A stretch of 64,000 bases of DNA from NCBI GenBank assembly GCA_951406725.2, contig OX597816.1, positions 31,992,001 to 32,056,000 of the forward strand, written 5' to 3'. Source of the stretch: Octopus vulgaris (taxonomy: Eukaryota). Shown piece by piece: positions 26,350 through 26,765 of this stretch (position 1 is its first letter; every line of letters begins with the position of its first letter). The translations under genes were made by a program, and so were the position numbers. Below the pieces are notes generated by a model. That model was not told where the DNA came from. It saw only the letters and a list, made by a program, of their open reading frames with translations, and ran no database searches.

Positions 26350-26765
26350 CTTTCAACAATATTAAGGAATGGCCTTGATATGCCAATCGACCCACTAGAA
26401 AGAGCAGCTGAATTCAAACAGCTAAATAGTTGTAATTCAGAAACCAAAGGAAAATAAAAACATTTTTACCCTTATCATCTTTGGACTATGCATAGTTTCG
26501 ACATACATATTGGCAAACCGATTTAATTAAATTAAATTAAATCTGTTTGCTACTGGCTTGCCTCGTCAGCAAAGAAGCCAGGGAAATATATATCCACGAG
26601 GTGACAGCATCGACGCCTCGAGAATATATATTCTAAATTTTCAAAATCTACCGTCACCGCGGCAACTTATCAGCAGCAAATATAAACTGCTGATTTAATT
26701 TCAGAATTAGCCAAAAAATCATTAATTAATCAATATCAGGATAGCAAAATATTCAAGAGAAATTA
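26350..26765 (-). mobile_element. Non-coding hammerhead-bearing element between TA tracts
   Basis: About 415-bp island flanked by (TA)n. Contains the hammerhead at 26478-26575 and a ctgctctttctag motif like that of the 595- and 560-bp units. Confidence 0.7.
26478..26575 (-). ncRNA. Type I hammerhead ribozyme motif
   Basis: Minus strand tctttg-CTGACGA-ggca(long hairpin: gcaaac/gtttgc, gatttaatt/aattaaatc)tgtc-GAAA-ctatgcatag-TC-caaaga. Six-bp stem I, perfectly palindromic stem III and a GUC site. Confidence 0.88.

What the first reader, a model, noticed from the sequence alone, without database searches (positions are those of the whole stretch)
26478..26575. Hammerhead with a perfectly palindromic stem III and a long stem II
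This is the cleanest ribozyme candidate in the window: canonical core, G-C closing pair of stem II, GUC triplet and 6-bp stem I. Stem III, ctatgcatag, is a 10-nt palindrome that could barely form a loop alone but could pair between two copies. Dimeric cleavage through palindromic stem III is described for minimal type I hammerheads.
Basis: partly seen in the sequence, partly recalled or inferred. Interest (0 to 1): 0.72.

Follow-up and report, generated by a model that had tools for sequence, protein, structure and literature searches.

The report
Dimer-ready hammerhead in Penelope-type retrozyme
This is a decayed single copy of a small protein-free jumping repeat that carries a hammerhead self-cutting RNA motif, a known kind of element; its relatives keep the palindrome and a knot-like pairing through matched changes, and many copies stop where the RNA is predicted to cut, which suggests that the motif does cut in the animal, likely best as a pair.

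Summary
The motif is real but lies on the minus strand (26575 to 26478): a type I hammerhead. It sits in a 415-nt, 5'-truncated remnant of a 470-nt non-coding repeat (137 exact 22-mer hits, 0 in control; 63 insertions mapped). The family inserts into (TA)n as partial tandems and head-to-head arms with two fixed 3' ends; 23 of 24 two-armed insertions pair one end with the other. This is the Penelope-like footprint: an animal non-LTR retrozyme, a known class. This scan already noted sister families elsewhere in the genome.

Across 20 copies of sister subfamilies, stems I to III covary. Stem III stays palindromic, and the dimer fold beats two monomers by 9-15 kcal/mol in 4 of 4 tandems. But a 4-bp stem with a tetraloop can form alone, so dimer dependence is not shown. 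A 4-6 bp pseudoknot covaries. 5' ends of copies crowd just downstream of the predicted cut in two families, indirect evidence for cleavage in vivo. This copy is the worst-folding of 39 and stands alone, so it is a poor test object. No autonomous partner was identified; cleavage is untested.

The parts
26350..26764 (-). 5'-truncated solo remnant of the 470-nt repeat unit (unit positions 190-470, then 1 to about 133; numbering from the predicted cut)
   Evidence: BLAST of a natural unit from tandem locus L016 against the window, 95% and 91% identity; boundaries shared with 29 other loci
26478..26575 (-). type I hammerhead motif (the finding)
   Evidence: covariation of all three stems
26570..26575 (-). 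stem I, 5' strand
   Evidence: pairs with 26483-26478; 4 of 6 pairs change on both sides across subfamilies
26563..26569 (-). catalytic core CUGACGA (CCGAUGA, the U4C variant, in sister subfamilies)
26500..26562 (-). stem II: 4-bp base (26562-26559 with 26503-26500; G.U at 10.2 where most family copies have A-U), internal loop, distal hairpin (about 26550-26511)
26576..26581 (-).
   Evidence: complementary to 26558-26553; covaries across subfamilies
26553..26558 (-). 3' strand of the predicted pseudoknot (AGCCAG), in the internal loop of stem II
26486..26495 (-). palindromic stem III and loop
   Evidence: seven distinct self-complementary variants in sister subfamilies; hairpin +0.4, duplex -15.9 kcal/mol
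26483..26484 (-). predicted cleavage site, after GUC
   Evidence: hammerhead consensus; 5' ends of copies crowd just downstream of it
26478..26483 (-). stem I, 3' strand
26368..26387 (-). hairpin just before the first fixed 3' end (E1); shared with sister families
   Evidence: (4,535 motif hits, 0 control)
26248..26349 (.). (TA)n target microsatellite at the 3' end of the insertion
   Evidence: TA runs at the ends of most mapped arms

Best explanation
The motif is a type I hammerhead inside a 5'-truncated solo copy of a 470-base non-coding repeat that is scattered through TA microsatellites with two fixed 3' ends and is likely pasted in by the enzyme of a Penelope-like retrotransposon, and in tandem transcripts it is predicted to cut after GUC, likely fastest when two copies pair through the palindrome. 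Shown by sequence: the anatomy, the closed 470-nt unit in natural tandems, the insertion footprint, covariation of stems I-III and of the pseudoknot strands. Inferred: tandem copies are transcribed; the pseudoknot docks stems I and II as the tertiary contact; a lone ribozyme has a marginal 4-bp stem III and cuts slowly or moderately, while neighbours in a tandem form a 12-bp stem III and cut in pairs; part of the RNA is cut (its 5' end then stops the reverse transcriptase) and part stays uncut or is closed to a circle (the enzyme then runs across the site, up to about 1.8 units in this family, up to 10 motif repeats in one sister array); a Penelope-type RT/GIY-YIG protein nicks (TA)n on both strands and primes at two internal sites about 90 nt apart, one per strand. 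This particular copy is likely dead or weak: it has no partner and two base changes favour a hairpin that hides the core.
For: Dispersed family: 43 DNA matches from 40 of 703 candidates scored; 137 exact 22-mer hits, 0 control. Closed unit of period 470. 85 of 98 arms in 63 insertions end at one of two places; 23 of 24 two-armed insertions pair E1 with E2. An intact 781-aa RT plus GIY-YIG element of this genome shows the same two-end, (TA)n footprint with a 40-nt offset. Published PLE marks match: partial tandems, inverted truncated copy, tail at one end, (TA)n bias (PMC8557442, passages); two internal RT starts define the tail and both strands are extended (PMC11167929, parts 1-2 of 4). Covariation: 97.8% of 320 cells pair, 11 of 16 pairs change on both sides, 0 of 500 shuffles reach it, slid controls 29-50%. 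Dimer fold 8.9-14.7 kcal/mol below two monomers in 4 of 4 tandems. Pseudoknot: 25 of 27 variable cells pair in 9 distinct types, shuffle P 0.004; both spacers lengthen together. 5' ends: 22 of 78 arms end at unit 2-32 against 6 of 56 in the next stretch upstream (P 0.017); in sister families D-G 27 of 72 end at -2 to 32, against 5 of 45 upstream (P 0.002) and 7 of 79 downstream (P 3e-5); the busiest 37-nt window of the circle starts within 2 nt of the cut in both sets. Window copy: 7.4 kcal/mol from the active fold, median 3.1, worst of 39.
Against: No cleavage was measured; 8 of 9 Xenopus retrozyme dimers did not cut in vitro (bioRxiv 10.64898/2026.07.22.740005, part 3). Of the two palindrome pairs that matter only in a dimer, one never varies and the other changes on both sides in 1 of 20 rows, so selection for the dimer rests on one event plus energetics; any palindrome wins as a duplex in such a calculation. 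In all 4 tandems the unconstrained fold is still 2.6-8.2 kcal/mol below the dimer fold (pseudoknot energy not counted). The crowding of 5' ends may also come from the enzyme stalling at the folded ribozyme or from AT microhomology: only 4 arms of family A end at position 2, most end 9-32 nt downstream, and a second cluster of 8 ends lies at -109 to -117. The family A set was chosen by a 24-mer at unit 39-62, which favours ends just upstream of it; 'both arms end near the cut' is significant in D-G (10 of 31, P 0.0003) but not in A (7 of 28, P 0.12). 56 of 78 arms cross the site, so cleavage is not required for copying, as in PMC11167929. The covariation tests ignore relatedness, and the pseudoknot rows were anchored on the GG and CC doublets; the outermost pair is a U.U mismatch in 2 of 9 types, and in three sister rows the strand competes with stem I. 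No autonomous element with a matching terminal repeat was found among 50 GIY-YIG loci.
Confidence: 0.72

Rival explanations
1. Same element, but the ribozyme works well as a monomer: the pseudoknot and the 4-bp stem III are enough, and the palindromic loop is a leftover of dimer-dependent ancestors.
For: Stem III hairpin is +0.4 kcal/mol here against +2.4 for 2-bp stems. Invertebrate retrozyme hammerheads with 2 bp and a tetraloop are reported to cut efficiently as monomers (PMC7229834, abstract, passages, section 14). Pseudoknots give high rates (PMC3088659, passages). The loop UGCA is nearly invariant (19 of 20 rows), which fits conservation for another reason.
Against: The one loop change seen in a large subfamily (UGCA to UAUA) is double and keeps self-complementarity. 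The dimer is 9-15 kcal/mol more stable. Palindromic loop III is general in repeat-type hammerheads (PMC3088659, Fig. S8 legend).
Confidence: 0.35
2. The hammerhead fold is a protein-binding or folding signal of the Penelope RNP that rarely cuts; truncated ends crowd there because the reverse transcriptase stalls at the structure.
For: 56 of 78 arms cross the site. In the anole Poseidon element cleavage needed protein, was not needed for insertion, and no RNA-seq reads began at the site (PMC11167929). Core-weakening variants spread: U4C subfamilies and a subfamily with an A.A mismatch at the base of stem II in young tandems. Both arms of L024 share a change at the first base after the cut.
Against: Catalytic positions and the NUH triplet are kept while all stems covary between families only 67-79% identical. 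The excess of ends stops sharply at the cut and does not continue into stems III and II. U4C is reported to keep enough activity in vivo (PMC3088659, passage).
Confidence: 0.15
3. The copies are only truncated ends (solo pseudo-LTRs) of an autonomous Penelope-like element, with no life cycle of their own.
For: Solo and inverted hammerhead-bearing ends of PLEs are common (PMC4209133, parts 1-2 of 4). 37 of the mapped insertions have a single arm.
Against: The unit closes on itself head to tail with no reading frame; 11 arms exceed one unit. PLE protein hits in 5 of 63 loci do not overlap the arms; in the four whose flanks were printed, TA runs or unrelated DNA lie between. The one apparent match of the 3' end to a GIY-YIG locus (L103) is a sister-family fragment inserted at another element's end.
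Confidence: 0.05

Closest known systems
Animal non-LTR retrozymes (Cervera and de la Pena 2020, PMC7229834: abstract, passages, section 14, part 4 of 6; Li, Clavereau and Pollet 2026, bioRxiv 10.64898/2026.07.22.740005: parts 1-3 of 5)
   Same: Non-coding, AT-rich tandem unit with one type I hammerhead per unit; stem I 6 bp and stem II 4 bp; palindromic loop III; coexists with autonomous PLEs; monomers, dimers and multimers in the genome.
   Different: Unit 470 nt (RNAs of 170-400 nt in the 2020 paper; consensus range 51-972 in the preprint); stem III 4 bp instead of 1-2; stem II extended by an internal loop and a long hairpin; a covarying Watson-Crick pseudoknot in place of the loop-loop contact; strict (TA)n targeting with two fixed ends. 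Circular RNA and cleavage not shown here.
Hammerheads in pseudo-LTRs of EN+ Penelope-like elements (Cervera and de la Pena 2014, PMC4209133; Craig et al. 2021, PMC8557442, passages; Frangieh et al. 2024, PMC11167929)
   Same: Partial tandems, inverted 5'-truncated arm, a tail at one end only, AT-rich targets, palindromic stem III proposed to act as a dimer, first RT start roughly 100-130 nt after the cut.
   Different: No ORF; the tail is about 90 nt rather than 30-40; the ribozyme is not minimal. The intact 781-aa PLE examined here has a minimal U3-A8 hammerhead-like motif, a 40-nt tail and no sequence match to the unit.
Pseudoknotted hammerheads and repeat-type dimeric hammerheads (Perreault et al. 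2011, PMC3088659, passages and supplement legends)
   Same: A base-paired contact between the stem I and stem II regions, reported for all three types and for the human C10 ribozyme; an Aedes repeat hammerhead whose loop III forms a 10-bp stem in a dimer; the U4C core variant.
   Different: Here the pseudoknot strand lies in an internal loop of a branched stem II and co-occurs with the long palindrome in a retrozyme. I did not see the supplementary figures or alignments, which may hold similar cases.

Membership tests
Type I hammerhead ribozyme | Core CUGANGA, GAAA and NUH at a three-helix junction with stem I open | tested here: met
Type I hammerhead ribozyme | Helices supported by covariation | tested here: met
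   11 of 16 pairs change on both sides in 20 rows; 0 of 500 shuffles
Type I hammerhead ribozyme | [quoted passage not shown] | tested here: inconclusive
   pseudoknot covaries, 25 of 27 cells, P 0.004 without correction for relatedness; not probed
Type I hammerhead ribozyme | Site-specific self-cleavage | not testable with these tools
   only indirect: 5' ends crowd after the site
Type I hammerhead ribozyme | Match to an Rfam hammerhead model | tested here: not met
   0 hits at gathering score in the window; the long stem II insertion is a likely cause (inference)
Minimal PLE hammerhead (min-HHR) | No or very small stem III, 7-8 bp stem II, 4-5 bp stem I, extra base before 10.1 | tested here: not met
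   4-bp stem III, 4-bp stem II base, 6-bp stem I, no extra base; definition from PMC4209133
Animal non-LTR retrozyme | Short non-coding tandem unit with a type I hammerhead in each unit | tested here: met
   470-nt tandems L009/L016, L017, L019; no long frame; the window copy itself is a partial monomer
Animal non-LTR retrozyme | No LTR, PBS or PPT; dispersed copies | tested here: inconclusive
   dispersed over many contigs, ends are truncations rather than LTRs; PBS and PPT were not searched for
Animal non-LTR retrozyme | Expressed as linear and circular monomer RNA | tested here: inconclusive
   contigs of four runs only guessed to be RNA cover parts of the unit; contigs cannot show circles, ends or strand
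Non-autonomous Penelope-like element | Partial tandems plus inverted 5'-truncated arm | tested here: met
   24 two-armed insertions among 63; 11 arms longer than one unit
Non-autonomous Penelope-like element | Two 3' ends (tail at one end only), AT-rich or microsatellite target | tested here: met
   52 arms end at E1, 33 at E2, 13 elsewhere, of 98; 23 of 24 pairs are E1 plus E2; tail longer than the usual 30-40 nt
Non-autonomous Penelope-like element | Terminal repeat homologous to an autonomous PLE of the same genome | tested here: not met
   no true match among 50 loci taken from 150 scored GIY-YIG hits of 6,136 candidates; a small sample, so the parent may be unseen or extinct
Autonomous Penelope-like element | RT plus GIY-YIG reading frame | tested here: not met
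   closed non-coding unit; no tblastn hit of the 781-aa protein in the window

The most novel reading that the evidence does not exclude
A retrozyme superfamily whose hammerhead has two evolved controls, a Watson-Crick pseudoknot for the tertiary contact and a 12-bp palindromic stem III that switches cleavage on only in tandem RNA, and whose genomic copies record cleavage in vivo: both cDNA arms of an insertion run off the same cut 5' end, while circles that cannot cut themselves give the multi-unit arrays. This would be genomic evidence on the open question of what Penelope-linked hammerheads do. A bolder add-on, weakly supported: the unit keeps an intron whose removal would delete the first priming site, which would explain why only unspliced RNA is copied.
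Probability: 0.3. Interest if true: 0.62.

Novelty: new member of a known kind. Interest (0 to 1): 0.4.

Why it matters
The class is known, and so are palindromic dimer stems and pseudoknots in hammerheads, so a specialist would not be surprised by the motif. What is useful is the natural series of variants: seven palindromes and nine pseudoknot types give ready-made compensatory pairs to test dimer dependence, and the sharp edge of 5' ends at the predicted cut in two families bears on a question that recent papers call open (whether Penelope-linked hammerheads cut in vivo and whether cut RNA is ever copied). It also shows which object to test: an intact tandem, not this copy.

Tried and rejected
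Rfam scan: no hit. Plus-strand reading and coding potential: no frame kept across sister families. Autonomous partner: GIY-YIG search gave 150 scored hits; 30 loci plus 20 wider stretches were compared with the unit, and the single match (L063/L103, 84% over 73 nt) proved to be a sister-family fragment joined to another element's end; rejected as a parent. PLE protein hits near 5 of 63 family loci do not overlap the arms. Single-template test in family A: arms of one insertion differ as much as arms of different insertions (3.6 against 3.3 per 100 nt) with a small excess of shared variants (0.19 against 0.03), so the family is too old for this test. Expression: no RNA holder listed; four runs guessed to be RNA were laid on a tandem locus and gave fragmented contigs, one joint going back 467 nt and no joint at the intron-like signals; this is no evidence either way, and no reads were laid on the sister family. 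Spliced genomic copies: 0 of 91 distinct copies. The idea that the palindrome is the hotspot for arm-to-arm junctions: only 2 of 56 arms end at -19 to -5; rejected. Paper searches for a pseudoknot in retrozyme hammerheads, for truncation at the cleavage site and for cephalopod retrozymes (listings only, apart from the papers named) showed no direct description; subscription journals and all supplements were not seen. PMC3846280 was seen as passages.

Full report
Observation. The window is AT-rich, microsatellite-laden animal DNA from a 2.8-Gb genome. Earlier notes of this scan call the animal an octopus; I did not test that. The motif reads on the minus strand from 26575 to 26478: stem I UCUUUG/CAAAGA, core CUGACGA, stem II base GGCA/UGUC, GAAA, the palindrome CUAUGCAUAG, then UC. 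The cut would fall between 26484 and 26483. The strict descriptor found nothing in 200 matched simulations, and the 98-mer folds at z -3.84. Rfam has no match at gathering score.

Host element. The motif lies in a 415-nt stretch (26350-26764) between TA-rich flanks. A DNA search gave 43 matches from 40 of 703 candidates scored; a 22-mer over stem III gave 137 exact hits and 0 for the reversed control; a 24-mer further downstream gave 78. Natural tandems show a closed unit of 470 nt with no long reading frame; as a circle it folds 8 standard deviations below 40 shuffles. I mapped the 63 insertions that carry the 24-mer: of 98 arms, 52 end near unit position 131 (E1), 33 near 222 (E2) and 13 elsewhere, mostly running into (TA)n; 23 of 24 two-armed insertions are head to head with one E1 and one E2 end; 11 arms exceed one unit. 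The window copy is a single E1 arm truncated at unit position 190. Partial tandems, an inverted truncated copy, a tail at one end and microsatellite bias are the published marks of Penelope-like elements (PMC8557442, passages). Two internal starts of reverse transcription, with both target strands nicked and extended, were shown in vitro for an anole element (PMC11167929, parts 1-2 of 4). An intact 781-aa RT plus GIY-YIG element of this genome has the same footprint with a 40-nt tail, but no sequence match to the unit. The partner enzyme is therefore inferred, not identified.

Sister families as a covariation set. A shared hairpin before E1 led to sister families of 474-494 nt, 67-79% identical to this one over the whole unit. 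In 20 copies chosen to span the subfamilies, 97.8% of 320 cells pair, 11 of 16 pairs change on both sides, and no shuffle of 500 reaches this; slid controls give 29-50%. Relatedness is not corrected for. Several subfamilies carry the U4C core, a variant reported to keep activity in vivo (PMC3088659, passage).

The palindrome. Seven common variants are all self-complementary, with or without G.U pairs. The outer pairs serve monomer and dimer alike. Of the two loop pairs that only a dimer uses, one is invariant and one changes G-C to A-U in one large subfamily. Stem III alone is +0.4 kcal/mol as a hairpin and -15.9 as a duplex; in 4 of 4 natural tandems the double-hammerhead fold is 8.9-14.7 kcal/mol below two monomers, though 2.6-8.2 above the unconstrained fold. 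So the dimer is favoured. It is not required on present evidence: this stem is 2 kcal/mol better than 2-bp stems, and invertebrate retrozymes with such stems are reported to cut as monomers (PMC7229834). Long palindromic loops that pair in a dimer are in print (PMC4209133; PMC3088659 Fig. S8 legend).

The bases just 5' of stem I (26581-26576) are complementary to the first strand of the internal loop of stem II (26558-26553). In nine distinct types, 25 of 27 variable cells pair (shuffle P 0.004), including UGGCU/GGCCA, AGGUU/AACCU and AGGUC/GACCU, and the two spacers to the core lengthen together. Caveats: rows were anchored on the GG and CC doublets, two types have a mismatch at the outer pair, and in some rows the strand competes with stem I. 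Pseudoknot contacts are known in all hammerhead types. My searches did not show one described for an animal retrozyme (listings), and I saw no supplements.

Does it cut? Indirect evidence comes from where copies stop. In this family 22 of 78 arms end 2-32 nt after the cut, four at position 2, against 6 of 56 in the next stretch upstream (P 0.017). In sister families D-G, chosen by a motif about 100 nt downstream, 27 of 72 end at -2 to 32, against 5 of 45 upstream and 7 of 79 downstream. The busiest 37-nt window starts within 2 nt of the cut in both sets, and in D-G both arms of an insertion end there together in 10 of 31 cases (4.9 expected; P 0.0003); in family A this is 7 of 28 and not significant. 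The simplest reading is that some templates were linear RNAs beginning at the cut. Against it: most ends lie 9-32 nt downstream, AT microhomology blurs the junctions, stalling at the fold would look similar, a second cluster lies at -109 to -117, the family A sample is biased towards these ends, and 56 of 78 arms cross the site. The anole study found cleavage dispensable and saw no read ends at the site.

This copy. It differs from the family at stem II position 10.2 and at the first pseudoknot base; together these extend a rival hairpin over the core. Its active fold costs 7.4 kcal/mol, against a median of 3.1, the worst of 39 intact distinct copies among 59 examined (pseudoknot energy not counted). 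With no tandem partner it is likely a dead end.

Earlier notes. Notes on sister families of 359-495 nt elsewhere in this genome reach the same class and the same two-end footprint; one title mentions a 5' end at the cleavage site. I had reached this reading before looking, and a look-up by sequence found no note on this family. They are not independent support.

Verdict. A real hammerhead in a non-autonomous Penelope-type retrozyme: a new member of a known kind, with a modestly unusual ribozyme. Interest 0.4.

Noticed in passing
window 11027-11126 (+), repeat 10600-11315: Second type I hammerhead family with a long stem II and loop III CGUGCG, in a direct repeat of about 596 nt ending in (TA)n.
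   Followed up: no
window 31037-32464: Third family: 560-nt unit in an inverted plus direct arrangement with three hammerhead motifs (31327-31378 minus, 31661-31712 and 32221-32272 plus) and TA ends; same Penelope-type footprint. It shares a short CGCTGGTGG motif with the 470-nt unit.
   Followed up: partly
window 47711-47801 (+): Solo type I hammerhead with a long stem II; a close relative lies in L108.
   Followed up: no
window 26871-27017: Inverted repeat holding a short hammerhead-like motif at 26909-26946 (minus) with a CCGAUGA core and an odd-length stem III, 330 nt from the finding; a different element.
   Followed up: no
window 34727-37063 (+): 778-aa open frame with reverse transcriptase (E 1e-21) and a weak zf-RVT match, starting in an (ATA)n run; resembles an R4/Dong-type site-specific LINE (label recalled, not tested).
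   Followed up: partly
unit positions 15-172; L034, L170, L228, L252: Intron-like signals conserved across sister families: AGG|GTAAA donor in 85 of 91 copies, TGAC in 87 of 91, pyrimidine tract and CTAG acceptor (lost in 15 of 23 copies with this palindrome). The segment spans E1. The same bases also form hairpins, which may explain the conservation; no spliced copy among 91.
   Followed up: partly
L252, L262, L272, L273: A tandem sister subfamily has an A.A mismatch at the base of stem II (positions 10.1 and 11.1) yet is abundant; a natural core-adjacent variant worth assaying.
   Followed up: partly
L091 430-5672: Intact Penelope-like element (781-aa RT plus GIY-YIG, preceded by a 359-aa frame) with direct terminal repeats, a U3-A8 minimal hammerhead-like motif and two ends 40 nt apart; many 781-aa copies in the genome.
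   Followed up: partly
unit positions about 118-133 and 212-225: Both fixed ends follow a hairpin and a similar CCT...TATTG motif, a candidate signal for the start of reverse transcription.
   Followed up: no
G000:C1 arrays, L224, L225, L228: The 492-nt sister family is much younger and larger (most of the listed hits among 4,535 motif matches; arrays up to 10 repeats) and is the better object for experiments.
   Followed up: partly
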